Notes under the pieces: generated by a model
What the model was told of the DNA's origin: nothing
The model's database searches: none
What the model saw: only the letters and a program-made list of their open reading frames with translations
Position numbers and translations under genes: made by a program
IMG/VR virus record: IMGVR_UViG_3300024229_000651
From: a virus
Lineage: Duplodnaviria > Caudoviricetes
Reading direction: 5' to 3' (one strand)
Length of the DNA: 64,000 nt
Shown: positions 27,442 through 52,701 of the stretch, one piece after another
How positions within the stretch are numbered: position 1 is the stretch's first letter
How the letters are laid out: every line of letters begins with the position of its first letter

Positions 27442-28446
27442 ATGGCTAGAATCGATGTAACTGAACTCGATATATTCTATATCTCCTATGACGAACCTAA
27501 CTGCGAAGAACATTGGTCAGACTTATTAAATAAAGTTCCGTGGGCTAAACGTGTACATGGAGTAAAAGGGTTCGATGCAGCGCACAAAGCATGCGCTAAT
27601 CAAAGCGAAACAGACAGGTTTATCACTGTTGATGGCGATAATATTGTTATGCCAGATTTCTTTGAGCAAGTATTAGATGTTCCTGATCAGGATCATGACG
27701 GTAACAACATATCCGAAAGTATTTTTAGTTGGAATGCAAAGAACATTCTAAACGGGTTAGTGTACGGCAATGGTGGACTAAAGTGTTGGCCTACCGAATA
27801 TACTAAAAGCATTAACACACATGAAGCCGCAACAGACGGCGAGGGCATGGAGTTTTGCTGGAAGTTAAACTATATACAACTCAACGATACGTTCAGTGAA
27901 GTGCACCAAACAGCAAGTCCTTTCCAAGCCTTTAGAGCAGGGTTTAGAGAAGGTGTTAAAATGAGTTTGGACCAGGGTGCAAGAATTTCCCCAGATGAGT
28001 TTGTAGAAAAAGTTTGGTGGCAAAATTATAATCGACTTCAAACATGGTGTAACATAGGCAGTGATGTAGAGAATGGATTATGGGCTATCTACGGCGCCCG
28101 GTTAGGCTGCGAAATGACTGTGCTTACTGATTGGGACACTAACTTAATTTCGGATTACGAATGGTTCAAAGAATTTTTCAATAGCCAAGTAGCACCAAAC
28201 TTCTCCGGCATGAACGATCAGCAATGCCGATATACCAAATTGGAATGGGACAGTAATATGCTGCAAAAAGAAATTTGTAGTTTGGGAAGAAAGTTAAACA
28301 CAGATATTAATGAGATGATGCTGTTTGATCCAGCACCGGAAATGTGCAAGTTCTTCAAACAAACATATGTTAATCCAAGACGATGGGGTGTAATGATTCG
28401 TGAAAAACAAATACAGGACTTACTTGAGAAAGGCCTCATACAGTAG
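27442..28446 (+). CDS. GT-A-like putative glycosyltransferase (single-module homologue of the 1953-aa protein C-terminus)
   Basis: IFYISY.E, V.GVKG.DAAHKA, FITVDGD (DxD), YGNGGLK.W and AFR.GFREGVK align with the last module of 55427-61288. Confidence 0.6.
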   Translation: MARIDVTELDIFYISYDEPNCEEHWSDLLNKVPWAKRVHGVKGFDAAHKACANQSETDRFITVDGDNIVMPDFFEQVLDVPDQDHDGNNISESIFSWNAKNILNGLVYGNGGLKCWPTEYTKSINTHEAATDGEGMEFCWKLNYIQLNDTFSEVHQTASPFQAFRAGFREGVKMSLDQGARISPDEFVEKVWWQNYNRLQTWCNIGSDVENGLWAIYGARLGCEMTVLTDWDTNLISDYEWFKEFFNSQVAPNFSGMNDQQCRYTKLEWDSNMLQKEICSLGRKLNTDINEMMLFDPAPEMCKFFKQTYVNPRRWGVMIREKQIQDLLEKGLIQ

Positions 28447-30080
28447 TGAGCATATACGACCAAGCCGCCGATAAGGCTAAAAAACAGCTAGATACAATCA
28501 GCCCATCAATGTGTTATGCAAAGTGGAGCCAAGTATCTATGCACCTAACAAATGGTACAACGCATAGTTGTTATCATCCACCTACACACAAAATTCCATT
28601 AAAAGAGTTAGATAACAACATAACAGCACTACATAACACAGAAGAAAAGAAAGAACAGCGTAGGCAAATGTTAAAAGGCGAGCGGCCTGAAGGCTGCAGT
28701 TATTGTTGGAGCATTGAGGATACAGGTGCTAGAAGTGATCGAGTGTATCGTAGCGGCGAGTATTGGGCACAAGAAAGTAAAGAAGATATCATGGACGCCG
28801 GCGCAAGTGGCAACATCAATCCACGATATGTAGAAGTAAATTTTAACCAGGCATGCAATTTTAAATGCAGTTATTGCTCACCGCATCTAAGCACAGCATG
28901 GCAAGAAGAGATTGAAGAGTTCGGTGAGTATCCGACAACATCACCGCACAACAATATAGATAGTTTACGTAATAAAGGACTAATGCCCTTAAAAGTCAGC
29001 CAAGAAGATAATCCATATGTTACAGCATTTTGGAAATGGTGGCCTGAAATGTATAAAACTTTAAGAGTATTTAGAATGACAGGCGGTGAGCCGCTGATGG
29101 ATAAAAATACATTCCAGGTGCTAGACTACGTGCACGAGAATCCTAATAAAGATCTAGAGTTAAGCATAACATCTAACATGTGCCCTGTCAACGATGCATT
29201 GTTTGTAAAATTTTTAACAAGTGTAAAAAAATTAGATGATGTACCGCATGGTGCAGAAGTATATGTTAAAGATCCACTCGACGGCACTGACTGGCAAACA
29301 TGGCAACATTATATAATAGGGGAAGATGCAAAACGCTATCACGACAGTGAGTTGCCAGTTATAGAACGACATGACATACCTCAAACATTTTTAGAAATAG
29401 GCCAATGCGAAGAGCACGACAACAATAGCTTTACATATCTATATGAATATAGAGATAAAGCATACCATAATTTCAGTGTGTTTGTAAGTCTAGACGGTTG
29501 GGGAGAACAGGCAGAATATATGCGTAGTGGTATGGATTTTGAGCAGTTGTGGAATAACTGCCATAGATTCCTAGACGAAACTAGATTCACTAGTATAAAT
29601 TTTATTAACACATTTAACTGTTTGAGTGTAACTACATTTAAAGATTTTCTACAAGGAATATTAGAGCTTAGGGAAAAATGGAGTAAGGAGAATCAATATG
29701 CAATGGGATGGGAAGTCCCAGAACAACGTATATGGTTTGATATACCTGTACTGAGAAATCCAGCTTGGCAAAATATACAAGTATTGCCAGGAACTTATCA
29801 AGAATACATGACAGACGCAATCGAGTTTATGGAAGCAAATCGAGCAAACGAAGAATATGTTGACTATAAAGGTTTCAAGGATTTTGAGATAGCAAAAGCA
29901 AAACGTAATTTAGAATTAATGAAGCAGGACATTTCTATAGATAATCTACAGCGTAACCGTACAGATTTTTATAAATTTTTCACAGAACACGATATACGAC
30001 GAGACACAAACTTTTTAGGTACATTTCCTGAAATGGCAGATTTTTGGTTTTTATGCGAGGAGGCGGATGCATTACAATGA
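28446..30080 (+). CDS. Radical SAM enzyme #1 with N-terminal twitch/SPASM-like Cys domain
   Basis: GTG start overlapping the TAG. CNFKCSYC, TGGEP and N-terminal CYAKW...SCYH...CSYCW. Confidence 0.9.
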   Translation: MSIYDQAADKAKKQLDTISPSMCYAKWSQVSMHLTNGTTHSCYHPPTHKIPLKELDNNITALHNTEEKKEQRRQMLKGERPEGCSYCWSIEDTGARSDRVYRSGEYWAQESKEDIMDAGASGNINPRYVEVNFNQACNFKCSYCSPHLSTAWQEEIEEFGEYPTTSPHNNIDSLRNKGLMPLKVSQEDNPYVTAFWKWWPEMYKTLRVFRMTGGEPLMDKNTFQVLDYVHENPNKDLELSITSNMCPVNDALFVKFLTSVKKLDDVPHGAEVYVKDPLDGTDWQTWQHYIIGEDAKRYHDSELPVIERHDIPQTFLEIGQCEEHDNNSFTYLYEYRDKAYHNFSVFVSLDGWGEQAEYMRSGMDFEQLWNNCHRFLDETRFTSINFINTFNCLSVTTFKDFLQGILELREKWSKENQYAMGWEVPEQRIWFDIPVLRNPAWQNIQVLPGTYQEYMTDAIEFMEANRANEEYVDYKGFKDFEIAKAKRNLELMKQDISIDNLQRNRTDFYKFFTEHDIRRDTNFLGTFPEMADFWFLCEEADALQ

Positions 30081-30334
30081 AAGATAGAGAAAAATTCTCA
30101 TCAGCAATATTAGCAGGTGTAGTAACAGTAGAGTTTAGAAAACTAGGCACAAATGAATTACGTGTGATGCCATGCACACTTAATGAAGAAGTAAGTGATG
30201 GCAATGCGAAAATAAGCAAGTTCGACTCAGGCTCAGACCATTTTGCGGTGTGGTGCTTGGATAAAAAGGCATGGAGAAGTTTCCGTGTAAACACAGTAGA
30301 GAAGTGGTACGAAGGTTACCCAGAAGAGGTTTAA
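30077..30334 (+). CDS. Small SH3/Sm-like beta-barrel protein (WYL_2/DUF2693-like)
   Basis: Real start is probably ATG 30077 (ATGA overlap) rather than 30044. Pattern V.F.K....R.M.CTL...V...D...WRSFR. Confidence 0.65.
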   Translation: MKDREKFSSAILAGVVTVEFRKLGTNELRVMPCTLNEEVSDGNAKISKFDSGSDHFAVWCLDKKAWRSFRVNTVEKWYEGYPEEV

Positions 30335-30655: not shown

Positions 30656-30687
30656 ACAGATCTTAGACAACAAACACAGGAAAAAAT

Positions 30688-31788: not shown

Positions 31789-31804
31789 GCCGTAACAAAA
31801 CAGA

Positions 31805-31811: not shown

Positions 31812-31816
31812 CTGGT

Positions 31817-32410
31817 ATGCATATAAAACGTGTAGCAATAACGGGTCACACAAGAGGTATAGGAAAAGCCTTGTGGGATCGACTAGAAGAGCGTGGCTTG
31901 GAACTTAGAGGCTACAGTAAATCGAATGGATATAACTTACAGCGTGTAAGCACATGCAAAAAAGTTGTACAAGATGTTGTTGACTGGAATGCAGATGTTT
32001 TTATAAATAATGCATATGTACCAGATAACCAAGTTCGGTTGCTGTATTTGCTTTATGAACAGTGGGAACACAAGCCTAGACTTGTAGTTAACTGTGGTGC
32101 AACGAGCAGCGATAGTATAACAAACTTTAGTCAAATGGGTTACAATGAAAATTGGACACCATACGTAAGTGATAAGGCAAGATTAGATTGGGCCAGTTTG
32201 CAACTAGCGAATATGTTCAAACAGGGAAAGTGTAGAGTCAGTCTAATAAAGCCTGGGTTTGTTGACACTGATAGCACAGCAGTGTTCAAAGACTTTGCTG
32301 AGGATTACATGATGACAGCTGACAGCGTAGCTGAACAGCTTGAATGGTTGATTGATCTTCCTAAACATGTACAAGTAAGAAATTTAAGTTTTGATGTGGG
32401 AAATTTTTAA
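31817..32410 (+). CDS. Short-chain dehydrogenase/reductase (SDR) family protein
   Basis: AITGHTRGIG Rossmann motif, FINNA, Y...K (YVSDK) and I.PG.VDT. Confidence 0.85.
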   Translation: MHIKRVAITGHTRGIGKALWDRLEERGLELRGYSKSNGYNLQRVSTCKKVVQDVVDWNADVFINNAYVPDNQVRLLYLLYEQWEHKPRLVVNCGATSSDSITNFSQMGYNENWTPYVSDKARLDWASLQLANMFKQGKCRVSLIKPGFVDTDSTAVFKDFAEDYMMTADSVAEQLEWLIDLPKHVQVRNLSFDVGNF

Positions 32411-34089
32411 TGGTTAGAAAAGTAGACGAAAGTCATAGAGAATTTAAAGCAAGAATGATCGACCCTGTGTCGGAATCGTTCTGTGGCGCTAAATGGTACA
32501 ATGCTACTATATGGTTAGGACACGGCGGAACTACAAGTTGCCATCACCCACCGGCGCATCAAATTGATTTAGAAGACATCAAAGAAAATCCTAGTGCTAT
32601 TCATAACAGTAGACACAAAAAGAAAATGCGTCAAATGATGCAGGAAGGTACTAGGCCTAAAGAATGTGAGTACTGTTGGAAGATAGAAGACATGGGCCAA
32701 GACGCAGATGGCAACGAGCCTGTGTCTGATAGAGTATATAAAACAGTTATATATGAGGATAGGGATTTAGAGCATATTGCAGTATTAGATCCTAATGCTG
32801 ATGTTAATCTAAAGACATGCGAAGTAGCATTTGACCGAACATGCCAGTTAGCATGTAGTTACTGTAATCCAGCATTTAGCAGCACATGGGTTAAGGATAT
32901 CAGAACTAATGGCGGCTACCAAGGCATTAAGAGTGATGCTAGAGGACACTTCATAGACGATGCACCATATGCAGAGCCTTTTGATCAAGGAGAGGACAAT
33001 CCTTATGTGGATGCATTTTGGCGTTGGTGGCCCGAACTAAGCAAAGAGCTAGAAGAGATCAGAGTTACTGGTGGCGAGCCATTGATGACTCCTAGCATAT
33101 ACAAACTGTTCGACTGGTTCAAGGAAACAGATGAGCCGAATGCAGAGAACATGCGATTAGCTATTAATAGTAACTTAATGGCTAAGCCGGGGTTGTTGGA
33201 TAAGTTTATCGATGCGACTCAACACATAAATCATTTCCATGTATACACAAGTTGCGAGGCGTTCGGAGCTCAAGCTGAGTATATTAGGGATGGATTAGAT
33301 TGGGAAATATGGACTAGCCAATTCGAGCGTTTTGCTACAGAAGCAAGATACGAAGGTGTACACATGATGATGACTATCAATGCATTATGCTTAGATACTA
33401 TAACACAATTTTTAGATTGGACATTAAGTATGAAGCGTAAATACGGACATCATGTGCCCGGTATTAGTGTAAATATTTTACGTTTTCCCAGCTTCCAAAG
33501 CCCACTTACACTGCCAGACGACTTGCGTAAAATGTATCATGACGAACTTAGTGAATGGCTAGACGAAGTACGCAGTAAAGGTGAAAGAGACATGCATGGT
33601 GTAGAATTGCTCCAGGCATGGGAACAAGATCAAATTAGCAGATTAATAGAATACTTAGACGTTGTAAAAACTCCTCACAGAAATACAGCAGAGCAACACT
33701 TACTGCATCATGACTTCAAGGTGTTTTATGAACAGTACGACTCTCGACGTGGATTTGATTTTAGAAAAACATTCCCTAGATTAGCAAACTGGTACGACGG
33801 TGTCACTGTGTTAGACATAAGCGATGACCATGACATACAGGCTCCTGATAGCGTAGGCGTAACCAATACAATGTACGCTAAACGTATTGTAACAGAAGAC
33901 GGCGAAGTCAAAGTTGTAGAAATGAAAGTGCGTGGAAGACAAACTGGCGAGAGCCAAGATGACTACGACGATGACAAGTATGCTGATGAGATACAAGGAG
34001 TTAATCCTAATATTAAAAAACGGGCAGGTAGTAGCATCGGCTGGGATCCTGAGACTGACGGTCTCGGTGGAGTAGCTGTTGACGAATAA
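32410..34089 (+). CDS. Radical SAM enzyme #2 (paralogue of #1) with acidic C-terminal extension
   Basis: CQLACSYC, TGGEP and N-terminal CGAKW...SCHH...CEYCW. TAATG coupling at both ends. Confidence 0.9.
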   Translation: MVRKVDESHREFKARMIDPVSESFCGAKWYNATIWLGHGGTTSCHHPPAHQIDLEDIKENPSAIHNSRHKKKMRQMMQEGTRPKECEYCWKIEDMGQDADGNEPVSDRVYKTVIYEDRDLEHIAVLDPNADVNLKTCEVAFDRTCQLACSYCNPAFSSTWVKDIRTNGGYQGIKSDARGHFIDDAPYAEPFDQGEDNPYVDAFWRWWPELSKELEEIRVTGGEPLMTPSIYKLFDWFKETDEPNAENMRLAINSNLMAKPGLLDKFIDATQHINHFHVYTSCEAFGAQAEYIRDGLDWEIWTSQFERFATEARYEGVHMMMTINALCLDTITQFLDWTLSMKRKYGHHVPGISVNILRFPSFQSPLTLPDDLRKMYHDELSEWLDEVRSKGERDMHGVELLQAWEQDQISRLIEYLDVVKTPHRNTAEQHLLHHDFKVFYEQYDSRRGFDFRKTFPRLANWYDGVTVLDISDDHDIQAPDSVGVTNTMYAKRIVTEDGEVKVVEMKVRGRQTGESQDDYDDDKYADEIQGVNPNIKKRAGSSIGWDPETDGLGGVAVDE

Positions 34090-35069: not shown

Positions 35070-36476
35070 ATGTCTAACAAAATAAAACCTATATGGGAGC
35101 ATGGTGCAGTCAGTGTAGACTCACCGAATAAAGTTTTTTGTACAGCGCCTTGGACACATACTTATATAAGTCCACAAAGCGAAAGGCGCATGTGCTGCGC
35201 TAGTAGGGAAGAACACCAATTCCAAAAGCAATATATTGATGCTAGTAATGACGAGCGAACAGGTAAATTCAAAGAGTCAGGCACAATTGACGATTATAAA
35301 CCAGTTAGTTTAAAAGAACACTGGAATAGTCCTTACATGATGGATATACGAAAGAAACTAATGGCCGGCGAAGCTATACCCCAGTGTGATGTTTGCAACA
35401 ATAGCGTACTGAGTCAAAGCACATATAGACAATGGTTTACTGGATTTCTATTTCAAAATAAAATAGATCAGTGTTTCGACGAAACAAATGATGACGGATA
35501 TACAACTATGGACCCTATCAGTTTTGATTATAGGGTTAGCAATCTGTGTAACTTTAAGTGTCGTATGTGCGGCGAACAACTTAGTTCAGCGTGGGAAACA
35601 GAGAAGAGACAAAATGATCATTGGACTCCTGAGAGCCAGCCTTTCATGGTTCCAGAGAATAAAGAAATAATACAGAAGTTTCAAAAGGATGTAGTAGAGG
35701 AAGAATTTTGGGAAGCGATTAAGTCGGGCACTGTAGAAGAAATATACTGGGTCGGCGGCGAGCCATTGATGTACGATATACATTGGAAAAGCATGGCTAG
35801 GCTCGCTGAAGATGACACATTAAAACTTGTACATTTACGTTATAACAGTAATTTAAGCAGAGTAAGATTTGGTAAACATTATCTGTACGATTGGTTGCCA
35901 CAAGCAAAAGACTGGACTATGTGTGCAAGTATAGACGCTATCGGCAAGATAGGAGAACATATACGCACAGGACTAGACTGGGAGCAATGGGATAAAAACT
36001 TTAGAGAAGGGGTAGCACTACCCGGTGGCAACAACAAGATGCTATTAGACTTAACACTAACCGGTCCCGGATTATTTGGACTTCGAGACTACGTTAATTA
36101 CGCACTAGAGCTTGACGTTAAGATAGAAACTAAAAAAATGTTTGCATTCCATCCGGATATTGTGTTCAGCATGATGTCCTGGCCAAAACATATATTACAT
36201 AGGATAGTTAACAAGTTACTAGATGACTTGCGTCCTATTGTAACAGAAAAACAACAGACTGTGATACGAGAACTAGAAAGTATGCTACAGATGGAAACGT
36301 TTCAAGAGTCTTTCCCAGATATAGCAGAACAGCAATTCTTTAATGGCAGACAGTGGCAACGCACTATAGCAGGTATCAGAAATGACGGCGAGCAAGGCGA
36401 AGCAATAACTGTAGAAGAAATATACTCTGCTGATAAGGAGTTATACGAATGGTATACCAGGGAGGAACATTCGTGA
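35070..36476 (+). CDS. Radical SAM enzyme #3
   Basis: CNFKCRMC, VGGEP and N-terminal CTAPW...MCC...CDVC. Confidence 0.9.
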   Translation: MSNKIKPIWEHGAVSVDSPNKVFCTAPWTHTYISPQSERRMCCASREEHQFQKQYIDASNDERTGKFKESGTIDDYKPVSLKEHWNSPYMMDIRKKLMAGEAIPQCDVCNNSVLSQSTYRQWFTGFLFQNKIDQCFDETNDDGYTTMDPISFDYRVSNLCNFKCRMCGEQLSSAWETEKRQNDHWTPESQPFMVPENKEIIQKFQKDVVEEEFWEAIKSGTVEEIYWVGGEPLMYDIHWKSMARLAEDDTLKLVHLRYNSNLSRVRFGKHYLYDWLPQAKDWTMCASIDAIGKIGEHIRTGLDWEQWDKNFREGVALPGGNNKMLLDLTLTGPGLFGLRDYVNYALELDVKIETKKMFAFHPDIVFSMMSWPKHILHRIVNKLLDDLRPIVTEKQQTVIRELESMLQMETFQESFPDIAEQQFFNGRQWQRTIAGIRNDGEQGEAITVEEIYSADKELYEWYTREEHS

Positions 36477-42962: not shown

Positions 42963-44409
42963 CGATACAAACAACGGATCTAATGACGAAAAGCGTCAAC
43001 AGAATATGTTCGGCTACACTTATTGGGATTACGAGTACACAGACTTATTTACTACAGACTATCCTGAATGTGCGCTAATGTGGTCTCATATGAGCAACGA
43101 GCCGGGTGGCACTGTGCGGTCATGTTGCATTGCTACAAATCGTGTTATGGATGATCTAAATAGAGATTTTAATCTAGGTACAACTAATCCTGTAGAAATT
43201 TTAAGATCAAACAACATGGCACAGATGAGAAACAAACTACGCAGTAATCAATTAATTAAAAACTGTGAAACATGTTGGATTGACGAAGCTAACGGTAAAG
43301 AATCTAAACGTCAGAAATATAATCAATATTATAAAAATTGGTATGGTGACAACGGCATAGCATGGCCCGAAGAAGGCACAGAGTATGTAAAGTTGTTAGA
43401 TATGCAATTGATATTTGATAATACATGCAATTTAAAATGTAGAAGTTGTAATGCAAACTACAGTAGTAAGTGGGTTGAAGAAGCAAATGACAGAAAGGTT
43501 CCTTACTGGAAGACTGAGTCTGACATTGACATGATGGATATGGAAAACTCTAAGTTTTGGACAGAGTTTGACATATGGACAAAAGACTTGCAACGTCTAG
43601 AGATCATGGGCGGCGAACCTTTCTATGTAAAAGAGTTTAAAAACTTTGTGGACAAACTTGTAGAGTCCGGGAAGTCACGTGATATTGATTTATCTTTAAG
43701 TACTAACGGAACTATTGTAGATGAAATATTTTTAGATAAGATCGTACAAAACTTTAAACGTGTTTCGTTTAGTATTAGTATAGATGGCATAGGGAAAAGA
43801 TTTGAATATTTAAGGCACCCTGGCAATTGGGATTCAGTGAAGGAAAACTTAGACTATTTTTATAAATTGCATAATAGTGACTACCCTGTTACAATACAAA
43901 TAACACACACAGTAACTTCGCTGAATGTGATGTACATGCCAGAGTTTTACGATTTTTTCGATAAGACGTATCCCACATTTAAAATATGGAATAACATAGC
44001 ACACTTTCCGAAGTGGATAACTGCTAGTGTTCTTCCTGCATTTGCTAAAAAACAAATAACACAATTATTATCAGAACATGATTTTAAATCCTACGCTCAA
44101 GAAATAAATGCGGTAGTGAACTATATGAACACGCCTTTATACGATGAAGGAAGCAGTGTAGATGACAGCCTTAAAAGCAAATTTACACAAGATAAATTAG
44201 ATTTTTTCGATCAACGCAGTATAGAAAAGAAATGGGAAATACATAAAAACCAAATTGTGAGTGGAGATATATACAGAGATGAGAACTTTATTGACACATT
44301 CCCTGAGCTGTATGGCTTAGTTAAAGATTCGTTTGACTACGAAGCAGAGCTTAACGAAGTAAAAGAAAACGGCTGGAAAGTACACAGCACCAGAGACCTT
44401 GTTCAGTGA
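42955..44409 (+). CDS. Radical SAM enzyme #4
   Basis: CNLKCRSC, MGGEP and N-terminal C..MW...SCC...CETCW. Confidence 0.9.
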   Translation: MTDDTNNGSNDEKRQQNMFGYTYWDYEYTDLFTTDYPECALMWSHMSNEPGGTVRSCCIATNRVMDDLNRDFNLGTTNPVEILRSNNMAQMRNKLRSNQLIKNCETCWIDEANGKESKRQKYNQYYKNWYGDNGIAWPEEGTEYVKLLDMQLIFDNTCNLKCRSCNANYSSKWVEEANDRKVPYWKTESDIDMMDMENSKFWTEFDIWTKDLQRLEIMGGEPFYVKEFKNFVDKLVESGKSRDIDLSLSTNGTIVDEIFLDKIVQNFKRVSFSISIDGIGKRFEYLRHPGNWDSVKENLDYFYKLHNSDYPVTIQITHTVTSLNVMYMPEFYDFFDKTYPTFKIWNNIAHFPKWITASVLPAFAKKQITQLLSEHDFKSYAQEINAVVNYMNTPLYDEGSSVDDSLKSKFTQDKLDFFDQRSIEKKWEIHKNQIVSGDIYRDENFIDTFPELYGLVKDSFDYEAELNEVKENGWKVHSTRDLVQ

Positions 44410-45728
44410 GCGAAACAGGCACCGATAAGTTATGCGGTTTACTGTGGGGATCGTTGTGTAACGAACCAGGCGGCACAGTGAGGTCGTGTTGTATCTCAAG
44501 AGAAAAGTTACATGATGCCAACAATAAAAACTTTAATCTTGCGACAACAAATCCACTGAATGTTTTAAAATCTACACAAGCTAAATGGTTAAGGAAAGAA
44601 CTGCTGGCAGGAAGAAAACCACCACAGTGCGATACATGCTGGATCGACGAAGCAAATGGCAAAGAATCCAAAAGACAAATGTACAACGGATTCTTTGATC
44701 AGTGGTATAAGAATCAAGGAACAGTTTGGTCAAACAATATACAAGAAGACGATATAAAACTAATCGATATCCAATTAATATTCGGCAACACATGCAATCT
44801 AAAATGCAGAAGTTGTAATCCTAACTATAGTAGTAAGTGGGTTGAGGAAGCTGCTGATAGGAATTTTGCAGAGCAGTTTGGCATTGACCGTGATGTAATA
44901 GACATGAATGATCCTGAGAATTCTAAATTTTGGACAGAGTTTGACGAATGGACTGCACACTTAGGCCGAATAGAAATAATGGGCGGTGAGCCTTTTTATG
45001 TAAAAGAATTTAGAAATTTCATAAACAAGCTAATAGATTCTGATAGGGCTCGGCATATTGAGCTTTCTTTAAGCACCAACGGCACAATACTTGACAAAGA
45101 ATTTTTAAATAAGATAATTAACAATTTTAAAGAAGTTGCGTTTAGTGTTAGCATTGACGGCATACATAGCAAGTTCGAGTACTTACGTAATCCTGCAAAG
45201 TGGAGTGAAGTAAAAGATAATCTAGATTACTTTTATAAAATACACACAGACGAAAATTACCCTGTAGTTATACAAATCACACATACTGTAACGGCACTGA
45301 ATATAATGAGCCTAGGAGAGTTCCATAATTATTTCGAGACACATTACCCTGAGTTCCACATATGGGATAATGTTGCACACTATCCTAAATGGTTAACACC
45401 TAGTGTGTTACCTAATTATGTTAAAAAACATATAACAGACAGTCTAGGAAAAACTAATTTTAATAATGCATCGGAGATTCAATCGATAATTAATTATATG
45501 AACACTGAATTATACACAGGCGAGACAGCACCACACGAAACTGTAGAAGTAAAATGGCAAACATTTAAAGATCAGACTGTTAGTGCAGATAAGTATAGAG
45601 GAGAAGATTTTAGAAATGTTTTCCCAGACTTGTGGGACTTAATACAACATGAATTCGATTACTCTGCAATACTTTCGAGTATAAACAATAACGGGTACCA
45701 TAGCTATGGCCCAGGGGAATTTTCATAA
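44406..45728 (+). CDS. Radical SAM enzyme #5 (close tandem paralogue of #4)
   Basis: GTG start (GTGA overlap) and CNLKCRSC. Shares GGTVRSCCI, CWIDEANGKESKRQ and EIMGGEPFYVKEF exactly with #4. Confidence 0.9.
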   Translation: MSETGTDKLCGLLWGSLCNEPGGTVRSCCISREKLHDANNKNFNLATTNPLNVLKSTQAKWLRKELLAGRKPPQCDTCWIDEANGKESKRQMYNGFFDQWYKNQGTVWSNNIQEDDIKLIDIQLIFGNTCNLKCRSCNPNYSSKWVEEAADRNFAEQFGIDRDVIDMNDPENSKFWTEFDEWTAHLGRIEIMGGEPFYVKEFRNFINKLIDSDRARHIELSLSTNGTILDKEFLNKIINNFKEVAFSVSIDGIHSKFEYLRNPAKWSEVKDNLDYFYKIHTDENYPVVIQITHTVTALNIMSLGEFHNYFETHYPEFHIWDNVAHYPKWLTPSVLPNYVKKHITDSLGKTNFNNASEIQSIINYMNTELYTGETAPHETVEVKWQTFKDQTVSADKYRGEDFRNVFPDLWDLIQHEFDYSAILSSINNNGYHSYGPGEFS

Positions 45729-46972
45729 TGACAGACACATATTGCCCTTTACCTTGGCAGCATTTGGCAACACATCCTCATGGTGGAGTAACACTGTGCT
45801 GTATAAGCGATCATACAGATGGCTTAAACAGAGCAAGGAATTTTAAACAAGACTACGACGAGTTTTTAGATTTAAACAAGCAAGATATTAATAGCTTGAT
45901 GAACAGCGACTACTATAAAGAAGTTCGCACACAAATGTTAAATAATGAAAAGCCTAAAGCATGCATGAGATGTTATGATGAAGAAGCTAAGGGCATAAAG
46001 AGTAAGAGACAACATGAGAAAACAATATTTCCATCGTACGACAGCAATTATGCATCCAAACTTACTAATGCGGATGGGAGCATACCTATGGACCTTCGTT
46101 TTGTTGAGCTTCGTCTTGGCAACGTATGTAACGTTCGGTGCCGTACATGCAATCCTGCAAGCAGTAGTAAATGGCTTGAAGACTATAAAGACATTGTGGA
46201 GAAAGCTGACTTTGTCAACAAAGGTTACTTAGGACTTGACTTCCCTGGAGATTTTAAGTGGGCCGAAGACGATAACTTTTATGACGACTTATATGACTCT
46301 GCGCCTAATCTAGAAGTAATTTATATCAACGGCGGCGAGCCTACATTAATAAAACAGCATTGGACATATTTAAAAAAATTAGTTGCAAGTGGCAGAAGCA
46401 AGGATATTATACTATGGTATAACATTAACTGTACTATGCTTCCTCCTATAGCATTAGAACTTTGGCCTCACTTTAAAGAAGCAAGAATATGTTTAAGCAT
46501 TGATGACTTAGATGATAGGAATGCGTTTATAAGAACGAATACAAATTGGAACGCTGTATTAAAAACTATAGATACATTATTACCACTACAGGATAAATTA
46601 ACATTACGAATTACACAAACAGTGAGTGCTTATAATTATGCTACATTGCCTGAGTTTTTTAAATGGGCAGATAGCATTGGGGTAGAAGTTGATATGAACT
46701 TCGTGTATGATCCCGATTACCTAAGTCCTGGAGTTATACCTCCTAAGGCAAGAGAGTTGATACATACAGAATTTAGACAAGCATTAGGCAATGATCATAA
46801 ATTAAGCACGTTACTTAGTATGTTTAATAACGAAGACTGGGATGAATTAAAGTGGGAACAGTTTTGCCGCTTTAACGATTTACTAGACAATAACGATAAC
46901 AGCGAATGGAGAAGTACATTTACAAAGTTAGTAGATGTAGTAGATGCAAGTGGATATACTAGCATTTACTAG
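45728..46972 (+). CDS. Radical SAM enzyme #6
   Basis: CNVRCRTC, NGGEP and N-terminal CPLPW...LCC...CMRC. Confidence 0.9.
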   Translation: MTDTYCPLPWQHLATHPHGGVTLCCISDHTDGLNRARNFKQDYDEFLDLNKQDINSLMNSDYYKEVRTQMLNNEKPKACMRCYDEEAKGIKSKRQHEKTIFPSYDSNYASKLTNADGSIPMDLRFVELRLGNVCNVRCRTCNPASSSKWLEDYKDIVEKADFVNKGYLGLDFPGDFKWAEDDNFYDDLYDSAPNLEVIYINGGEPTLIKQHWTYLKKLVASGRSKDIILWYNINCTMLPPIALELWPHFKEARICLSIDDLDDRNAFIRTNTNWNAVLKTIDTLLPLQDKLTLRITQTVSAYNYATLPEFFKWADSIGVEVDMNFVYDPDYLSPGVIPPKARELIHTEFRQALGNDHKLSTLLSMFNNEDWDELKWEQFCRFNDLLDNNDNSEWRSTFTKLVDVVDASGYTSIY

Positions 46973-47714: not shown

Positions 47715-47722
47715 AATACAAT

Positions 47723-48916
47723 TTGAAAAGAAAGTTTACAGTTCATTTTGAATTAACTAGCACTTGTCAAGCCGCATGTCCTAACTGTGCAAGAAATGTA
47801 GGCGGGGTCGAGTTACCTTGGTTGGGGAAAACAGAACTAAGATTACCTGATGTCAAAAAAATACTACAAGGTACACAACTAGTAAAACAAAGCGATATAC
47901 TATACTGTGGTACACACGGTGACCCGGCTGCTGCTAAAGACCTATTGCCGATAATTGAATGGATACAAGATCAGCCGTACGAAGCAGGAAATAAAAGACG
48001 ACAACAGATTAATACAAACGGCGGTCTGCGTGATAAAGATTTTTGGAATAGATTAGGAAAACATTTTAATAAACAGCACGACCGCGGACACGTTGTATTC
48101 AGTATAGACGGATTAGAAGATACAAATCATATATACAGAAAAGGAGTCAGCTGGTCTCGTGTGTGGGAAAATTTAAATGCATACGTTAATGCAGGCGGCG
48201 AAGCAGTTTGGGACTATCTCGTGTTTGGTCATAACAAACATCAAGTCGATGAAGCTGAACGTATTGCTAAAAGCATGGGTATAACATTTGTAAAAAAAAG
48301 ACCGCACGGTTTCGATCAAACAGCAGGACAACTAGATAGCGAACAACATATGCACACATACGATACGAATGGAAACTATGAGTACAGTATTTCTAAGGAT
48401 ACTGATGTGGTATACTTTGAAGAAGAAGAAAACAGTAAGCCCGGTGCTAATTTGAGTCGTGTGCAGAATAGTGGTATAACACTTACAGAAAAAGAAAACA
48501 ACTATAGCAAAGAATCGAAAATACGATGTAAGAGTTTAAGTAGAGGAACAGACCGAACAGTTTTTAGTCAGGATATTTATGTCAAAAGTGACGGACATTT
48601 GTTGCCCTGTTGTCACATGGATGTGGTTACAACAACAAACTCTTATAATTTTGGCCATCAACAAATGAAAGATACTGTCGCCGGCATATATAACATGTTA
48701 GATGTAGTTAACAACGATATAGACAAGATGATCGAAAGCGATACATTTAAAAAAACATTTTTCGATACACAAATTTTAGAATCTGCCGAGGAAGGCAAAC
48801 CTATGTTTTGTGTTGATACTTGCGGCGGCAACACGCCAAGGGATATGTTATTCACGGCACATCAAGACAGTAACAATGCCACAGCAACTAAACTATCAAA
48901 ATTATTAGGATTATAA
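47723..48916 (+). CDS. Radical SAM enzyme #7 with conventional C-terminal twitch/SPASM domain
   Basis: TTG start, CQAACPNC near the N-terminus, GDP motif, and C-terminal C...IYV..DG.LLPCC...C..TC. Confidence 0.85.
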   Translation: MKRKFTVHFELTSTCQAACPNCARNVGGVELPWLGKTELRLPDVKKILQGTQLVKQSDILYCGTHGDPAAAKDLLPIIEWIQDQPYEAGNKRRQQINTNGGLRDKDFWNRLGKHFNKQHDRGHVVFSIDGLEDTNHIYRKGVSWSRVWENLNAYVNAGGEAVWDYLVFGHNKHQVDEAERIAKSMGITFVKKRPHGFDQTAGQLDSEQHMHTYDTNGNYEYSISKDTDVVYFEEEENSKPGANLSRVQNSGITLTEKENNYSKESKIRCKSLSRGTDRTVFSQDIYVKSDGHLLPCCHMDVVTTTNSYNFGHQQMKDTVAGIYNMLDVVNNDIDKMIESDTFKKTFFDTQILESAEEGKPMFCVDTCGGNTPRDMLFTAHQDSNNATATKLSKLLGL

Positions 48917-48917
48917 C

Positions 48918-50216
48918 ATGAGCGAAACAAACATAACACTACAGGAAATTAAGGAGCTAGCCGAAGGAGAAGCGTTCTGCATATTACCTTGGATACACAT
49001 GCATCCGTGGCCAGATGGTAGAGTATTCACTTGTTGTTTAAGCGAACACGATTCCCCGATTGGTAACCTAAATGAAATGGATCTCGACGAGTGTTATAAT
49101 AGCGACACTATGAAGCAGTTTAGATTAGACATGTTAAATAATAAGAAGGTGTCCAATTGTAACAGGTGTTACGAGTTAGAAGAGCTGGGACACGATACAT
49201 TGCGAAAAAGAAGCAATGGCGAGTTCGTACAGGAACGCTATAATCTACATGAGTCTAAAGCAGACGTTGTACAGCAAACAAACGAAGACGGCAGTGTAGA
49301 CAAAGTTAACCTCACATATGTAGATATTCGTTTTAGTAATATATGTAATATGCGATGCAGAACATGCGGACCAGACCTAAGCAGTCAGTGGTTCGAAGAT
49401 GCTGTTGACAGTAAGTATAATAGAACCCCAGAGCAAAAAATCCTACAAATACGGAAAGGTAATACAGCATTTATGGAGCAGTTCGACCCGTACTTGGATA
49501 CTGTTGAAAAAATATATTGGGCTGGCGGCGAACCACTCATAATGGATGAACACTGGTACATAATGAACAAACTTGTGGAGTTAGGCAAAGGTACTGCTGG
49601 AAGCCCGTTGAGAATTTTTTATAATACAAACTTTAGCAAATTAACATACAAAGACTTCGATGCTATAGAATTATGGAAGAATTTTGATAATCTCAGTATC
49701 GGTGCTAGTTTAGATGCGTCAGGCAAAAAAGCAGAATACTTGCGCAAGGGTACTAAATGGTCCGAGACTCTTGACAATAGATGGCGTGTTAGAGATGAAC
49801 TAAAACAACACGACTTCAATATCAGTTGTACAGTAAGTATGTTTAACGTGTTAGACGTATGTGATTTTTATAGAGAGATGTGTGACATAGGCTTTATAGA
49901 GCCTAAAGACTTTGGTGTAAACATTTTATTGGGTAAATCCATACACAGAGCAACTGTGTTACCTAAGCACATGAGAGAAGAAGCACAACGGCGAATAGAA
50001 GAAACCCTCGACTGGATTGACGGACAGGATCCTGTAGGTCGAGTGACAGATACATTTAAGAGTTTACATCAGTTCCTGGACGGCGATGATAGTGACAAGT
50101 TAGCAGACAGTATGGCCGAAGCAAAAGAAATGGATCGATTCAGAGACGAAACATTGTTTGACGTTTTTCCTGAGTTAGAAGAACTACGTCCTATTTACGA
50201 GGCAGCAGATGAGTAA
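48918..50216 (+). CDS. Radical SAM enzyme #8
   Basis: CNMRCRTC, AGGEP and N-terminal CILPW...DG....CC...CNRC. Confidence 0.9.
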   Translation: MSETNITLQEIKELAEGEAFCILPWIHMHPWPDGRVFTCCLSEHDSPIGNLNEMDLDECYNSDTMKQFRLDMLNNKKVSNCNRCYELEELGHDTLRKRSNGEFVQERYNLHESKADVVQQTNEDGSVDKVNLTYVDIRFSNICNMRCRTCGPDLSSQWFEDAVDSKYNRTPEQKILQIRKGNTAFMEQFDPYLDTVEKIYWAGGEPLIMDEHWYIMNKLVELGKGTAGSPLRIFYNTNFSKLTYKDFDAIELWKNFDNLSIGASLDASGKKAEYLRKGTKWSETLDNRWRVRDELKQHDFNISCTVSMFNVLDVCDFYREMCDIGFIEPKDFGVNILLGKSIHRATVLPKHMREEAQRRIEETLDWIDGQDPVGRVTDTFKSLHQFLDGDDSDKLADSMAEAKEMDRFRDETLFDVFPELEELRPIYEAADE

Positions 50217-51375
50217 CCTACCAGAACATTTTTGCATATTACCTTGGATCAATCAAGAAGCACGAACTAACGGAGAAATTGGTGTGTGCTGTGTTATGCA
50301 AGAGACTGTACCCGATATGAACTTAGCGGACGGAGCCACACTAAAGGACGCTTGGGATAGTAAGTGGTTAGCAGATTTAAAAGAAGACTTCTTAGCAGGA
50401 GAGAAACCTTCAGCATGTTACAACTGTTGGAACGAAGAGAAGGCTGGAATTGACAGTAAGCGTTTACGAGAGTTACGGAAGTTCCCACATCACTTAGAAG
50501 ATTTAGATCATCTTAAACCAAAGAGCATGGATTTAAAACTAGGTAATATATGTAACACCAAGTGCAGAATATGCACAGGGTTTGCAAGTAGTCAATGGGT
50601 TCCAGAAGAAATCGAACGTGACGGAGAAACAAATCAATTTGCACAACTTATGGGACGTCTAGGTCGTTGGCCAGAACTCAATGAGCAGTTTTGGGATGAT
50701 CTAGAAAGTCAGATCGAAGAAGTAGAAAGTCTAGAGTTTTTCGGAGGCGAGCCGTTTTTAATTAAACGACACTTCGAGATATTGCAAACACTTGCAGACA
50801 AAGGCAGAGCCAAAGACATTAGTTTAAGTTACAATACAAACGGTTCTATATTCCCTGAACAGCACATAGATCTGTTATCACAGTTCAAAGATGTGCAAGT
50901 GTTTTTCAGTATAGACGGTGTAGGCGAAAGATTTAATTACATACGCCACCCAGGCAAATTTGAAGATGTAATGGAAAACTATTATAAGTTTAGATCAGTG
51001 CCTAAGATACGAACAAACATTTTTTATACTGTAAGTTTGTTTAACATAATGTATATGGATGAATTATTAGAATACCAAAAAGAAAATGATATAGAAACAG
51101 AGATACATTTTAATATGGTATACGTACCACATCATATCAGTCCTAAAGCATTACCCGAAACTGCAAAAAAAGCTATAACAGAAAAATTTAAAGATCACAC
51201 AGATCATAGAATACAAAGCACACTAAATTTTATGAATCAAGAAGATTATGATGGGTACTTAGACGAACTAGTTAGACAGGTGCAATTCAGCGATAAGTAT
51301 AGAGATGAAAGCATAGCAAAAACGTTCCCTGAGCTTTATCAATATCTTAAGCCTTGGTTCGAGCCTAAACAATAA
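50209..51375 (+). CDS. Radical SAM enzyme #9
   Basis: CNTKCRIC, FGGEP and N-terminal CILPW...VCC...CYNC. Confidence 0.9.
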   Translation: MSNLPEHFCILPWINQEARTNGEIGVCCVMQETVPDMNLADGATLKDAWDSKWLADLKEDFLAGEKPSACYNCWNEEKAGIDSKRLRELRKFPHHLEDLDHLKPKSMDLKLGNICNTKCRICTGFASSQWVPEEIERDGETNQFAQLMGRLGRWPELNEQFWDDLESQIEEVESLEFFGGEPFLIKRHFEILQTLADKGRAKDISLSYNTNGSIFPEQHIDLLSQFKDVQVFFSIDGVGERFNYIRHPGKFEDVMENYYKFRSVPKIRTNIFYTVSLFNIMYMDELLEYQKENDIETEIHFNMVYVPHHISPKALPETAKKAITEKFKDHTDHRIQSTLNFMNQEDYDGYLDELVRQVQFSDKYRDESIAKTFPELYQYLKPWFEPKQ

Positions 51376-51399
51376 GTAGTAGCACACAAGGAGAAATAA

Positions 51400-52701
51400 A
51401 TGTCTTACAGTAAAACATTCTGTCCATACCCCTGGATACATGTGATGACACAACCTAGTAGTACAGTAAATTTTTGCTGTGTAGCGCAAGGGCAAATCAA
51501 GCGGGACGACGGAAGAGTATTCTACATGAAGTATGTAGATAAACTTGAAGATGTTTGGAACAATAATCATTACAGAATGATTAGAAGACAGATGATAGAA
51601 GGCGAAGAGGTCGAAGGCTGTAAACCTTGTTACGATTTAGAAAAAGTTGGAATACCAAGTTATAGAGAAAACTACATTAGGGACTGGATGGGCTTCCACC
51701 CAAAAGCAGACGAAGTAAAAGCTCGCATTGAAAAAAGTATAGACCAAGATTACTATGTAGACGAACCACCAATGTATTTAGATTTTAGACTAGGAACATT
51801 ATGTAACCTACGTTGTAGAATGTGCCAGAGTCAAAACAGTAGCGCAATATATAAAGAGATGCTAGACGAAGATATCTACGATGAAGACGAAAAACAATTT
51901 ATTATTGACCAAACACATTGGGGAGACTTTAGTGATTATACATTTAATTGGTACGACAGTCCTAGGTTCCTAGATGCCGTTGAACAATGGTTGCCACATG
52001 TTAACAAACTTTATTTTACAGGCGGTGAACCTACAATCATTCAACGTGTATATTGGATTATGGAAAAGTGTGTAGAGTTAGACATAGCAAAAGATATCGA
52101 GCTAGTGTTCAACAGTAACATGACAAACATACAACCAAAATTCTTAGAGATCTGTGGCAAGTTTAAACATGTACTAATGTGTATAAGCGTAGACGGTTTT
52201 GCTGAAACAAACGAGTACATCAGAGGCGGCAGTACATGGAGTGTTGTGGACAAGCATATCAGAGAATACTCAACGTCAGAAGTTGTAGGTAATATACTGT
52301 TTAGTCCCGTAGTACAAATATACAACCTGTTTCAAATAACAGACCTAGTAGACTACGCTGAGGAAATCACAAAAGAAAGCGGCAGACGAGTTAACTTGAG
52401 TTTCATTGTTAACAACTACCCAGAGTGCTTAGACATCAGAAACTTGCCTAAGTCAGCAAGATTAGCCGCACAGGAATATTTAATGTCATGGATGAACGAG
52501 AGCGAGTTTATTAAAGGTGACCCTGATGCTCTCAACACTGTAGTAGGACTGATTAACAGTTTAGACGATGAACATGTAAAGGACAATGCAGAAGAGCAAA
52601 TGGAAATATTCCAAAAATACACAGACTTATTAGATGACAAGCGTGATCAAGACATCAGTCAAGTGTCGCCCGAACTATGGAAACATATCAAATGGCGCTA
52701 G
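51400..52701 (+). CDS. Radical SAM enzyme #10
   Basis: AGGAG RBS, CNLRCRMC, TGGEP and N-terminal CPYPW...FCC...CKPC. Confidence 0.9.
   Translation: MSYSKTFCPYPWIHVMTQPSSTVNFCCVAQGQIKRDDGRVFYMKYVDKLEDVWNNNHYRMIRRQMIEGEEVEGCKPCYDLEKVGIPSYRENYIRDWMGFHPKADEVKARIEKSIDQDYYVDEPPMYLDFRLGTLCNLRCRMCQSQNSSAIYKEMLDEDIYDEDEKQFIIDQTHWGDFSDYTFNWYDSPRFLDAVEQWLPHVNKLYFTGGEPTIIQRVYWIMEKCVELDIAKDIELVFNSNMTNIQPKFLEICGKFKHVLMCISVDGFAETNEYIRGGSTWSVVDKHIREYSTSEVVGNILFSPVVQIYNLFQITDLVDYAEEITKESGRRVNLSFIVNNYPECLDIRNLPKSARLAAQEYLMSWMNESEFIKGDPDALNTVVGLINSLDDEHVKDNAEEQMEIFQKYTDLLDDKRDQDISQVSPELWKHIKWR

What the first reader, a model, noticed from the sequence alone, without database searches (positions are those of the whole stretch)
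28446..52701. Permuted radical SAM architecture: twitch/SPASM-like Cys domain sits N-terminal to the CxxxCxxC core in 9 of 10 copies
SEEN: #1-6 and #8-10 start with C-x3-W...C(C/Y/H)...C-x2-C (e.g. FCILPW..CC..CNRC, YCPLPW..CC..CMRC) well before the CxxxCxxC motif. Only #7 (47723) has the auxiliary Cys domain at the C-terminus. KNOWN: characterised SPASM/twitch enzymes (anSME, BtrN, MoaA, PqqE) carry the auxiliary [4Fe-4S] domain C-terminally. INFERENCE: this is a permuted, phage-expanded radical SAM family. #1 and #2 form a sub-type in which the CC pair becomes CYH or CHH, suggesting different cluster ligation.
Basis: partly seen in the sequence, partly recalled or inferred. Interest (0 to 1): 0.72.

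Follow-up and report, generated by a model that had tools for sequence, protein, structure and literature searches.

The report
Phage radical SAM enzymes, N-terminal twitch
Nine of ten radical-SAM enzyme genes in this marine giant-phage region carry their extra iron-sulfur domain in front of the catalytic core instead of behind it, which is real but already a catalogued (NCBIfam NF033640), very large and still uncharacterised family, so the open question is its chemistry, not its layout.

Summary
Nine of the ten radical SAM ORFs share an N-terminal Cys block (C-x3-W ... CC ... C-x2-C) about 50-60 residues before the CxxxCxxC motif. It is kept although the paralogs are only 18-32% identical (one pair 54%). 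Three tests tie this block to the twitch/SPASM auxiliary-cluster domain. A profile of it hits only BtrN's twitch domain in the whole PDB, with the four ligand Cys aligned. Pfam SPASM matches 85 of 90 isolated N-terminal domains. A confident model of the isolated domain matches only the auxiliary domains of BtrN and anSME, at low Z.

The layout is not new. All nine copies score 291-368 bits on NCBIfam NF033640, "N_Twi_rSAM" (cut-off 170). The family has over 7,000 clusters at 50% identity, and database entries already carry the name. I found no solved structure, assay or paper on it. This scan already reported the same kind of array in another phage (e1-5367861).

New here:
- A conserved cassette beside tail-fibre genes: three GT-A-like genes, five N_Twi enzymes, then a carbamoyltransferase.
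- The #1/#2 sub-type (single Cys followed by YH or HH) is conserved across dozens of phage contigs.
- Members occur in cultured phages, including Ralstonia phage RsoM2USA and Vibrio phage K566.

Glycan tailoring is the likeliest function but is only inferred.

The parts
28446..30080 (+). Copy #1, N_Twi_rSAM, 544 aa. Twitch Cys block at nt 28512-28706 (C23, C42, C84, C87; single Cys followed by YH). Core CxxxCxxC at nt 28854-28877. Has a large insertion inside the core.
   Evidence: NF033640 at 322.7 bits, cut-off 170; alignment; Cys map; the CYH motif is conserved in 8 of 8 orthologs.
32410..34089 (+). Copy #2, N_Twi_rSAM, 559 aa. Twitch Cys block at nt 32482-32676 (C25, C44, C86, C89; single Cys followed by HH). 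Core motif at nt 32842-32865.
   Evidence: NF033640 at 315.6 bits; the CHH motif is conserved in 59 of 60 orthologs; an ortholog of about 50% identity is present in 80 of 80 related loci.
35070..36476 (+). Copy #3, N_Twi_rSAM, 468 aa. Twitch Cys block at nt 35139-35396 (C24, C42/C43, C106, C109). Core motif at nt 35547-35570.
   Evidence: NF033640 at 295.5 bits; Pfam SPASM on residues 24-110; part of the conserved cassette core.
42955..44409 (+). Copy #4, N_Twi_rSAM, 484 aa. Twitch Cys block at nt 43069-43275. Core motif at nt 43426-43449. 54% identical to #5.
   Evidence: NF033640 at 291.3 bits; Pfam SPASM on residues 39-108; identity matrix.
44406..45728 (+). Copy #5, N_Twi_rSAM, 440 aa. Twitch Cys block at nt 44433-44639. 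Core motif at nt 44793-44816.
   Evidence: NF033640 at 306.8 bits.
45728..46972 (+). Copy #6, N_Twi_rSAM, 414 aa. Twitch Cys block at nt 45743-45973. Core motif at nt 46127-46150.
   Evidence: NF033640 at 346.9 bits; Pfam SPASM on residues 6-83.
47723..48916 (+). Copy #7, a different radical SAM enzyme, 397 aa. CxxxCxxC starts at residue 15. It has a C-terminal twitch/SPASM-like Cys domain (C269, C296/C297, C363, C367). It is not a family member.
   Evidence: NF033640 at only 40 bits, over the core; Pfam SPASM on residues 282-347 at 18.7 bits, below the cut-off; weak hhalign match to the N-terminal twitch profile.
48918..50216 (+). Copy #8, N_Twi_rSAM, 432 aa, the copy that was modelled. Twitch Cys block at nt 48978-49169 (C21, C39/C40, C81, C84). 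Core motif at nt 49344-49367.
   Evidence: NF033640 at 367.9 bits; AlphaFold2 model with pLDDT 95.5 and pTM 0.91; core matches anSME, BlsE, CteB and SkfB at Z 12-13; the isolated N-terminal domain matches BtrN and anSME auxiliary domains.
50209..51375 (+). Copy #9, N_Twi_rSAM, 388 aa. Twitch Cys block at nt 50233-50427. Core motif at nt 50551-50574.
   Evidence: NF033640 at 345.6 bits; part of the conserved cassette core.
51400..52701 (+). Copy #10, N_Twi_rSAM, 433 aa. Twitch Cys block at nt 51421-51630. Core motif at nt 51802-51825.
   Evidence: NF033640 at 328 bits; Pfam SPASM on residues 8-78.
24705..28446 (+).
   Evidence: Homologs lie within 10 kb of a family member in 48, 50 and 59 of 80 viral loci, in fixed order. 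X27's atlas clusters are auto-named 'Glycosyltransferase 2-like' and are 85-96% viral; Pfam GT2 matches only at E 0.13.
53610..55172 (+). NodU/CmcH-type carbamoyltransferase, the conserved downstream end of the cassette.
   Evidence: Pfam Carbam_trans_N and Carbam_trans_C; present in 46 of 80 loci after the R3-type copy; also three genes after the family member in cultured Ralstonia phage RsoM2USA.
30688..31788 (+). Phage-encoded SAM synthetase (MetK) inside the array. It probably supplies the co-substrate. It is specific to this expanded version of the cassette.
   Evidence: Three S-AdoMet synthetase Pfam domains; a homolog in only 1 of 80 loci.

Best explanation
The nine ORFs are members of NCBIfam NF033640 (N_Twi_rSAM). 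This is a very large, catalogued but biochemically uncharacterised branch of the SPASM/twitch radical SAM enzymes. In it the auxiliary-cluster (twitch) domain comes before the partial TIM-barrel core instead of after it.

Shown here: family membership, homology of the N-terminal block to BtrN's twitch domain, an intact CxxxCxxC and GGEP core, and strong expansion in phages.

Inferred mechanism: the core [4Fe-4S] cluster binds and cleaves SAM to give a 5'-deoxyadenosyl radical that abstracts a substrate hydrogen. A second [4Fe-4S] cluster is held by four Cys of the N-terminal domain (C21, C39 or C40, C81, C84 in copy #8). It sits at the barrel opening and takes or returns the electron, as in BtrN.

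Inferred role, at roughly 40-45%: the deeply diverged paralogs are separate tailoring steps on a sugar or glycan made by the adjacent glycosyltransferase-like genes and finished by the carbamoyltransferase, within the host-recognition (tail-fibre) region of this roughly 340-kb marine T4-like phage.
For: - Membership: nine copies score 291-368 bits on NF033640, cut-off 170.
- Conservation: the N-terminal Cys and core motifs are invariant at 18-32% paralog identity and across 102 family members.
- Sequence homology: the N-terminal profile hits only BtrN in the PDB (E 7e-4, chain residues 165-239), aligning with C169, C187, C232 and C235. The Cys spacing is 18/42/3 against BtrN's 18/45/3.
- Pfam SPASM matches 85 of 90 isolated N-terminal domains.
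- Models: the full model has pLDDT 95.5 and pTM 0.91; the isolated domain has pLDDT 92.
- Domain fold: Foldseek's top hit is BtrN (probability 0.99, 67 columns, 1.9 A). BtrN is the only one of 48,161 chains with Z >= 2 (Z 4.0). anSME's SPASM domain gives Z 4.6 and BtrN 4m7t gives Z 3.6 at 2.6 A over 79 residues.
- Core fold: matches anSME, BlsE, viperin, CteB and SkfB at Z 12-13.4.
- Family size: 7,431 clusters at E <= 1e-30. Full-length look-alikes in AlphaFold DB reach TM 0.83-0.84.
- Sugar link: a conserved order GTa-GTb-X27-R1-R2-R8-R9-R3-carbamoyltransferase; a fusion to a GT2 domain and an array interleaved with GT2 genes; NeuB, UDP-glucose dehydrogenase and carbamoyltransferase inside another array; a fusion to TylF-type methyltransferase domains; UDP-glucose dehydrogenase, aminotransferase and carbamoyltransferase in the window.
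Against: - No iron-sulfur content, activity or substrate is known for any member.
- The structural match of the isolated domain is weak in absolute terms (Z 3.6-4.6).
- I could not obtain model coordinates, so it is not shown that the N-terminal domain sits where BtrN's twitch sits in space.
- Most characterised SPASM/twitch enzymes act on peptides or proteins.
- TPR fusions are the commonest fusions to a domain of another kind, and these suggest protein partners.
- Later checks of similar 'radical-tailored glycan' readings elsewhere in this scan priced them at only 10-30%.
- Most sugar and lipid genes in the window are not conserved across related cassettes.
Confidence: 0.75

Rival explanations
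1. The enzymes are protein or peptide maturases. They would install cross-links, epimerisations or similar changes on a phage structural protein, such as the tail fibres or the 6539-aa baseplate protein encoded just upstream, or on an unrecognised precursor, rather than on a sugar.
For: Most characterised SPASM/twitch enzymes modify peptides or proteins. The core's best Foldseek hits include CteB, SkfB, anSME and SuiB. About 14 of 36 longer homologs are TPR fusions, a protein-binding module. The array lies directly after virion genes. Later checks of similar arrays elsewhere favoured peptide targets.
Against: No RRE or other leader-binding domain appears in any copy. No short Cys-, Ser- or Thr-rich precursor-like ORF was found in the cassette across 80 loci. 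GT2 fusions and interleaving occur. The twitch domain's only sequence match in the PDB is the sugar-type enzyme BtrN.
Confidence: 0.25
2. The N-terminal Cys block is not an iron-sulfur twitch domain. It would be a structural zinc-binding module or a disulfide-stabilised cap, with no redox role.
For: Four-Cys sites with a CxxC pair are typical of zinc ribbons. The fold match is weak (Z about 4). No metal analysis exists.
Against: There is specific sequence homology to BtrN's twitch domain with all four ligand positions aligned. Pfam SPASM matches 85 of 90 domains. Every structural hit above noise falls on the auxiliary-cluster domain of a radical SAM enzyme.
Confidence: 0.06
3. The enzymes tailor a lipid, for example a glycolipid acyl chain, together with the SCP2 carrier, desaturase and short-chain dehydrogenase found in the window.
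For: SCP2, fatty-acid desaturase and SDR genes lie inside the window's array. The core gives weak matches to the lipid enzyme GDGT-MAS/Tes.
Against: Among 80 related cassettes the SCP2 and SDR genes have no homolog and the desaturase has one, so they are local additions. The matches to lipid radical SAM enzymes are no better than those to many other subfamilies.
Confidence: 0.05

Closest known systems
NCBIfam NF033640, N_Twi_rSAM (twitch domain-containing radical SAM protein)
   Same: All nine copies match the model end to end at 291-368 bits against a cut-off of 170. They have the same N-terminal Cys block, CxxxCxxC, GGEP and C-terminal helical region.
   Different: Nothing structural differs. 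The family has no known reaction, structure or paper. The window adds an unusually large array of nine copies, and its #1/#2 sub-type has one Cys where the rest have a CC pair.
BtrN (butirosin 2-deoxy-scyllo-inosamine dehydrogenase; PDB 4M7S/4M7T), the founding twitch enzyme
   Same: The N-terminal domain is homologous to BtrN's twitch domain. The four cluster ligands align, the spacing is alike (18/42/3 against 18/45/3), and there is a beta-hairpin flanked by Cys followed by a CxxC helix. The radical SAM core is of the same general type.
   Different: In BtrN the twitch domain follows the core (residues 165-250); here it precedes it. The cores are no closer to BtrN than to anSME, BlsE or viperin. 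Most copies have a fifth conserved Cys (the CC pair), and there is an extra C-terminal helical region of about 90 residues. These are not orthologs of BtrN.
anSME and other SPASM enzymes (CteB, SuiB, PqqE)
   Same: They give the best full-model matches over the core (Z 12-13.4). anSME's SPASM domain (residues 246-349) aligns with the isolated N-terminal domain at Z 4.6. Pfam SPASM matches the domain.
   Different: SPASM domains bind two auxiliary clusters with seven or eight Cys and lie C-terminal to the core. Here only four or five Cys are conserved, enough for one cluster, and the domain is N-terminal. There is no RRE domain.
Radical SAM cassettes in the host recognition cluster of marine T4-like myophages (Zaragoza-Solas et al. 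2020, PMC7029224; Nishimura et al. 2017, PMC5332604)
   Same: The genomic setting is the same: a variable region after the giant baseplate protein and tail fibres, rich in glycosyltransferases, with radical SAM gene cassettes. One T4-like environmental genome with 12 radical SAM genes is on record.
   Different: Those papers mention the genes only in passing. They describe neither the family, its N-terminal twitch layout, nor the conserved gene order.

Membership tests
NCBIfam NF033640 (N_Twi_rSAM) | Full-length HMM score above the curated cut-off of 170 bits | tested here: met
   Nine copies score 291.3-367.9 bits, covering profile positions 1-398 in most. Copy #7 scores only 40 bits and is not a member.
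NCBIfam NF033640 (N_Twi_rSAM) | Twitch-type Cys domain N-terminal to the CxxxCxxC radical SAM core | tested here: met
   The Cys block ends 51-59 residues before the core motif in all nine copies. Pfam SPASM matches the N-terminus.
SPASM/twitch radical SAM subgroup (SFLD subgroup 17; Grell, Goldman and Drennan 2015) | Radical SAM partial TIM-barrel core with CxxxCxxC | tested here: met
   The motif is invariant. Model residues about 131-390 match anSME, BlsE, CteB, SkfB and MoaA at Z 12-13.4.
SPASM/twitch radical SAM subgroup (SFLD subgroup 17; Grell, Goldman and Drennan 2015) | Auxiliary-cluster domain with a beta-hairpin flanked by Cys and a downstream CxxC, homologous to the BtrN or anSME auxiliary domains | tested here: met
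   HMM E 7e-4 to BtrN 165-239 with the ligands aligned. Foldseek probability 0.99 at 1.9 A over 67 columns. BtrN is the only PDB representative with Z >= 2. anSME 246-349 gives Z 4.6. All of this rests on predicted structure, and the Z values are low.
SPASM/twitch radical SAM subgroup (SFLD subgroup 17; Grell, Goldman and Drennan 2015) | Auxiliary domain located C-terminal to the barrel | tested here: not met
   The domain is N-terminal in nine copies. Only copy #7 has the canonical order.
SPASM/twitch radical SAM subgroup (SFLD subgroup 17; Grell, Goldman and Drennan 2015) | The auxiliary domain binds a [4Fe-4S] cluster close to the active site | not testable with these tools
   This needs Fe/S analysis, EPR, or model coordinates, which the tools do not return. 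A pTM of 0.91 shows only that the domain is confidently docked on the core.
BtrN orthologs (2-deoxy-scyllo-inosamine dehydrogenase) | Full-length similarity to BtrN and an aminoglycoside biosynthetic context | tested here: not met
   The full-length profile does not list BtrN among its PDB hits. Only the twitch domain matches. The context is a phage tail-fibre region.
RiPP radical SAM maturases (SkfB, CteB, SuiB type) | RRE or leader-binding domain and a neighbouring precursor peptide | tested here: inconclusive
   No RRE family appears in the Pfam or NCBIfam hits. No precursor-like short ORF was seen in 80 cassettes, but only ORFs of 90 aa or more were called.

The most novel reading that the evidence does not exclude
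The conserved phage cassette (three GT-A-like genes, five anciently diverged N-terminal-twitch radical SAM enzymes, and a carbamoyltransferase, expanded here to nine such enzymes plus a phage SAM synthetase) builds a glycan carrying several different radical-installed edits. The glycan would sit on the virion fibres or the infected cell surface as part of host recognition. The CC copies versus the single-Cys-plus-His copies (#1 and #2) would mark two different chemistries at the auxiliary site.
Probability: 0.3. Interest if true: 0.75.

Novelty: new member of a known kind. Interest (0 to 1): 0.4.

Why it matters
The permuted layout itself is not a discovery, because curators have already named it. 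What matters is that one of the largest unstudied branches of the radical SAM superfamily is concentrated in big marine phages, at 8-16 copies per genome. It has more than 7,000 clusters at 50% identity and no known reaction or structure. The copies sit in a fixed cassette beside the tail fibres. That is a heavy investment in unknown radical chemistry at the host-recognition locus. Members in cultured phages (Ralstonia phage RsoM2USA, Vibrio phage K566) make the chemistry directly testable. A natural N-terminal twitch domain would also show how an auxiliary cluster can be supplied from either open edge of the partial barrel.

Tried and rejected
- Megablast of 8.8 kb of the array against 50,697 phage records found nothing. 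A protein search found only three distant cultured carriers.
- No whole genome is held for the window.
- Scans of GTDB genome contigs with alignments A2 and A1 failed because no stretch was conserved enough. So the distribution in cellular genomes was not measured. Only AlphaFold DB look-alikes with hidden organism names and 14 control genomes with no hit above the cut-off bear on it.
- The full-length profile against PDB sequences matched only radical SAM cores. The full model against the PDB also matched only the core, as expected for sequential aligners on a permuted protein.
- Foldseek on the isolated domain gave no hit at E <= 0.001 (best 0.27, BtrN). I rely on the agreement of three weak but specific results, not on any single one.
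So I could not superpose the model on BtrN or measure the distance between the clusters, and I could not decide whether C39 or C40 is the ligand.
- Searches for 'N-terminal twitch', 'N-terminal SPASM' and 'NF033640' found no paper using those terms. Searches for the cassette found only passing mentions.
- I looked for a RiPP-type precursor among the unlabelled cassette ORFs. They are a roughly 350-aa and a roughly 110-aa conserved protein of unknown function, not Cys-rich peptides.
- The lipid reading was rejected because the SCP2, SDR and desaturase genes are not conserved with the array.
- The hhalign comparison of the N-terminal profile with copy #7's C-terminus is only suggestive (probability 11%).

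Full report
WHAT IS THERE. Between 28446 and 52701 the + strand carries ten radical SAM ORFs, interspersed with other enzyme genes. Nine of them (#1-6 and #8-10) align end to end. In that alignment C21, W25, C40, C81 and C84 (numbering of copy #8) are invariant, as are the core C143-x3-C147-x2-C150 and the GGEP motif. The copies are only 18-32% identical to one another, apart from #4/#5 at 54%. In every copy the Cys block ends 51-59 residues before the CxxxCxxC motif. Copy #7 differs: its CxxxCxxC starts at residue 15 and its extra Cys are C-terminal (C269, C296/C297, C363, C367).

WHAT THE N-TERMINAL BLOCK IS. Three independent tests agree.
- Sequence. Pfam SPASM (PF13186) matches the N-terminus of five window copies above its threshold and 85 of 90 isolated N-terminal domains from across the family. 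A profile of those 90 domains, searched against every PDB sequence at E up to 10, returns only BtrN (E 7e-4). The match falls on BtrN's C-terminal twitch domain (residues 165-239) and aligns the family's Cys with BtrN C169, C187, C232 and C235. The spacing also agrees: 18/42/3 in copy #8 against 18/45/3 in BtrN.
- Fold. With a 102-sequence alignment, AlphaFold2 gives copy #8 a mean pLDDT of 95.5 and pTM of 0.91. The domain alone (residues 1-126) gives pLDDT 92. For the isolated domain, Foldseek's top hit is BtrN 4M7S (probability 0.99, 67 columns at 1.9 A), and most of the remaining rows are other SPASM/twitch enzymes.
- Exhaustive structural alignment. Against 48,161 PDB representatives, exactly one chain reaches Z >= 2: BtrN, at Z 4.0, model residues 16-107 on chain residues 164-249. 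A second look adds anSME's SPASM domain (Z 4.6, chain 246-349) and BtrN 4M7T (Z 3.6, 2.6 A over 79 residues).
The Z values are low, as expected for an 80-residue domain. However, every hit falls on the auxiliary-cluster domain of a radical SAM enzyme. The rest of the protein (model residues about 131-390) is a standard radical SAM core closest to the SPASM/twitch subgroup: anSME, BlsE, viperin, CteB and SkfB at Z 12-13.4. No solved structure shares the whole architecture.

What I could not show is that it occupies the same position in space as BtrN's twitch domain. The tools return no coordinates, and sequential aligners cannot align a permuted protein.

IS IT NEW? No. All nine copies score 291-368 bits on NCBIfam NF033640, whose short name is N_Twi_rSAM and whose product name is 'twitch domain-containing radical SAM protein' (cut-off 170). 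NCBI, UniProt and atlas entries already carry that name. The RadicalSAM.org paper states that some members of the SPASM/twitch megacluster have their conserved extra Cys N-terminal to the barrel, and that no structures exist for them (PMC9477430). The family is very large. A profile of the nine copies finds 34,633 cluster representatives (50% identity) at E <= 1e-3 and 7,431 at E <= 1e-30. These include proteins with two or three units in tandem. On the other hand, I found no paper using 'N-terminal twitch', 'N-terminal SPASM' or the accession, no solved structure and no assigned reaction. This scan had already reported the same kind of array, with 13 radical SAM genes of which 12 have an N-terminal twitch, in another phage of about 350 kb (e1-5367861).

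PHAGE EXPANSION AND CONTEXT. Earlier notes and PHROG hits identify the window as part of an uncultured marine T4-like phage of about 340 kb. Five related phage records, three of them estimated at least 90% complete, hold 8-16 places above the family cut-off each. None of 14 control cellular genomes has one. The 100 nearest atlas clusters are almost all viral; those listed are 93-100% Viruses. At least 588 IMG/VR stretches encode relatives.

I compared 35 window proteins with 80 of these loci. Several genes travel with the family:
- #1-like and #2-like copies of about 50% identity in 79-80 loci;
- X27 (27442-28446) in 59 loci;
- the carbamoyltransferase (53610) in 46 loci.
They occur in a fixed order: tail-fibre-like, GTa, GTb, small ORF, X27, R1, R2, R8-like, R9-like, R3, unknown ORF, carbamoyltransferase. 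The window is an expanded version of this cassette. It has extra copies #4, #5, #6 and #10, the unrelated #7, and local additions. The additions are MetK, SCP2, SDR, UDP-glucose dehydrogenase, a methyltransferase, a 2OG oxygenase, an aminotransferase and a desaturase. Most of these have few or no homologs in other cassettes. The literature describes this region of marine T4-like myophages as a 'host recognition cluster' rich in glycosyltransferases, with radical SAM cassettes mentioned in passing (PMC7029224). One environmental T4-like genome with 12 radical SAM genes is on record (PMC5332604).

THE #1/#2 SUB-TYPE. Of 102 family members, only window copies #1 and #2 lack one Cys of the CC pair. 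Their variants, G-x4-C-Y-H and G-x4-C-H-H, are conserved in 8 of 8 and 59 of 60 orthologs in other phage contigs. These two are also the most conserved members of the cassette. MAFFT aligns their single Cys with C40. The SPASM G-x4-C register, and the BtrN alignment of the CC copies, instead identify the first Cys (C39) as the canonical ligand. On the second reading, #1 and #2 have exactly BtrN's four ligands, and the other copies carry one extra Cys of unknown role. One possibility, drawn from my general knowledge of radical SAM epimerases and not tested here, is a hydrogen-atom donor. 'Different cluster ligation' is thus possible but not indicated.

FUNCTION. Nothing here shows a substrate. 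Several observations point to sugar chemistry:
- the conserved GT-like partners and the NodU/CmcH-type carbamoyltransferase;
- a natural fusion of a family unit to a GT2 domain, in a contig where eight further radical SAM-type genes are interleaved with four GT2 genes or domains;
- an array containing NeuB, UDP-glucose dehydrogenase and a carbamoyltransferase;
- a fusion to TylF-type methyltransferase domains;
- the same pairing of family member and carbamoyltransferase in cultured Ralstonia phage RsoM2USA;
- the twitch domain's only PDB sequence relative is the aminoglycoside enzyme BtrN.
Other observations point to a protein target:
- most characterised SPASM/twitch enzymes act on peptides or proteins;
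- TPR fusions are frequent;
- virion genes are adjacent;
- later checks of comparable 'radical-tailored glycan' readings in this scan gave low odds.
No RRE domain and no precursor-like ORF was found, although only ORFs of 90 aa or more were examined. I put glycan or nucleotide-sugar tailoring at about 40-45%, protein modification at about 25%, and lipid at about 5%. Lipid is low because the lipid-type genes are local additions.

VERDICT. The remaining interest lies in the unknown chemistry of a conserved phage cassette. That chemistry is now testable in cultured phages: RsoM2USA gp202 scores 305 bits, and K566 gp303 and gp306 score 202 and 193 bits on NF033640.

Noticed in passing
window 1080-20699: A single 6539-aa ORF lies directly after a baseplate-wedge-like gene. 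It may correspond to the giant VrlC-type baseplate protein that delimits the 'host recognition cluster' in marine T4-like myophages (PMC7029224), but I did not test that.
   Followed up: no
window 36449-37786 and 37802-39127: Two paralogous proteins of about 440 aa have no Pfam family. Their relatives recur, often in several copies and on either strand, inside or at the edge of the radical SAM cassette in many of the 80 viral loci.
   Followed up: partly
L043:13698-14819, L050:14616-15656 and 17 other loci: A conserved protein of about 350 aa and unknown function sits between the R3-type copy and the carbamoyltransferase in 19 loci. It has no homolog among the 35 window proteins compared.
   Followed up: partly
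window 28446-30080 (copy #1): Copy #1 carries an insertion of roughly 70 residues inside the radical SAM core that none of the other eight copies has (alignment columns 330-410).
   Followed up: no
P0121-P0147 and P0270-P0285 (homologs from metagenomes): Many family members are natural tandem fusions of two, and occasionally three, complete twitch-plus-core units in one protein of 800-1200 aa. This fits units that work together, and it offers a possible route by which the domain order could have been permuted.
   Followed up: partly
L082:9935-14696 (Ralstonia phage RsoM2USA, gp202 to gp199): A cultured soil jumbo phage has a bona fide family member (305 bits) three genes upstream of a NodU-like carbamoyltransferase. 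Both are annotated only as hypothetical proteins.
   Followed up: partly
window 30688-31788: A phage-encoded SAM synthetase lies inside the array. A homolog occurs in only 1 of 80 related cassettes.
   Followed up: partly
window 47723-48916 (copy #7): The one canonical-order radical SAM enzyme also has a G-x4-CC hairpin motif in its C-terminal domain. That motif aligns weakly with the CC motif of the N-terminal twitch profile, so both domain orders may be present side by side in one locus.
   Followed up: partly
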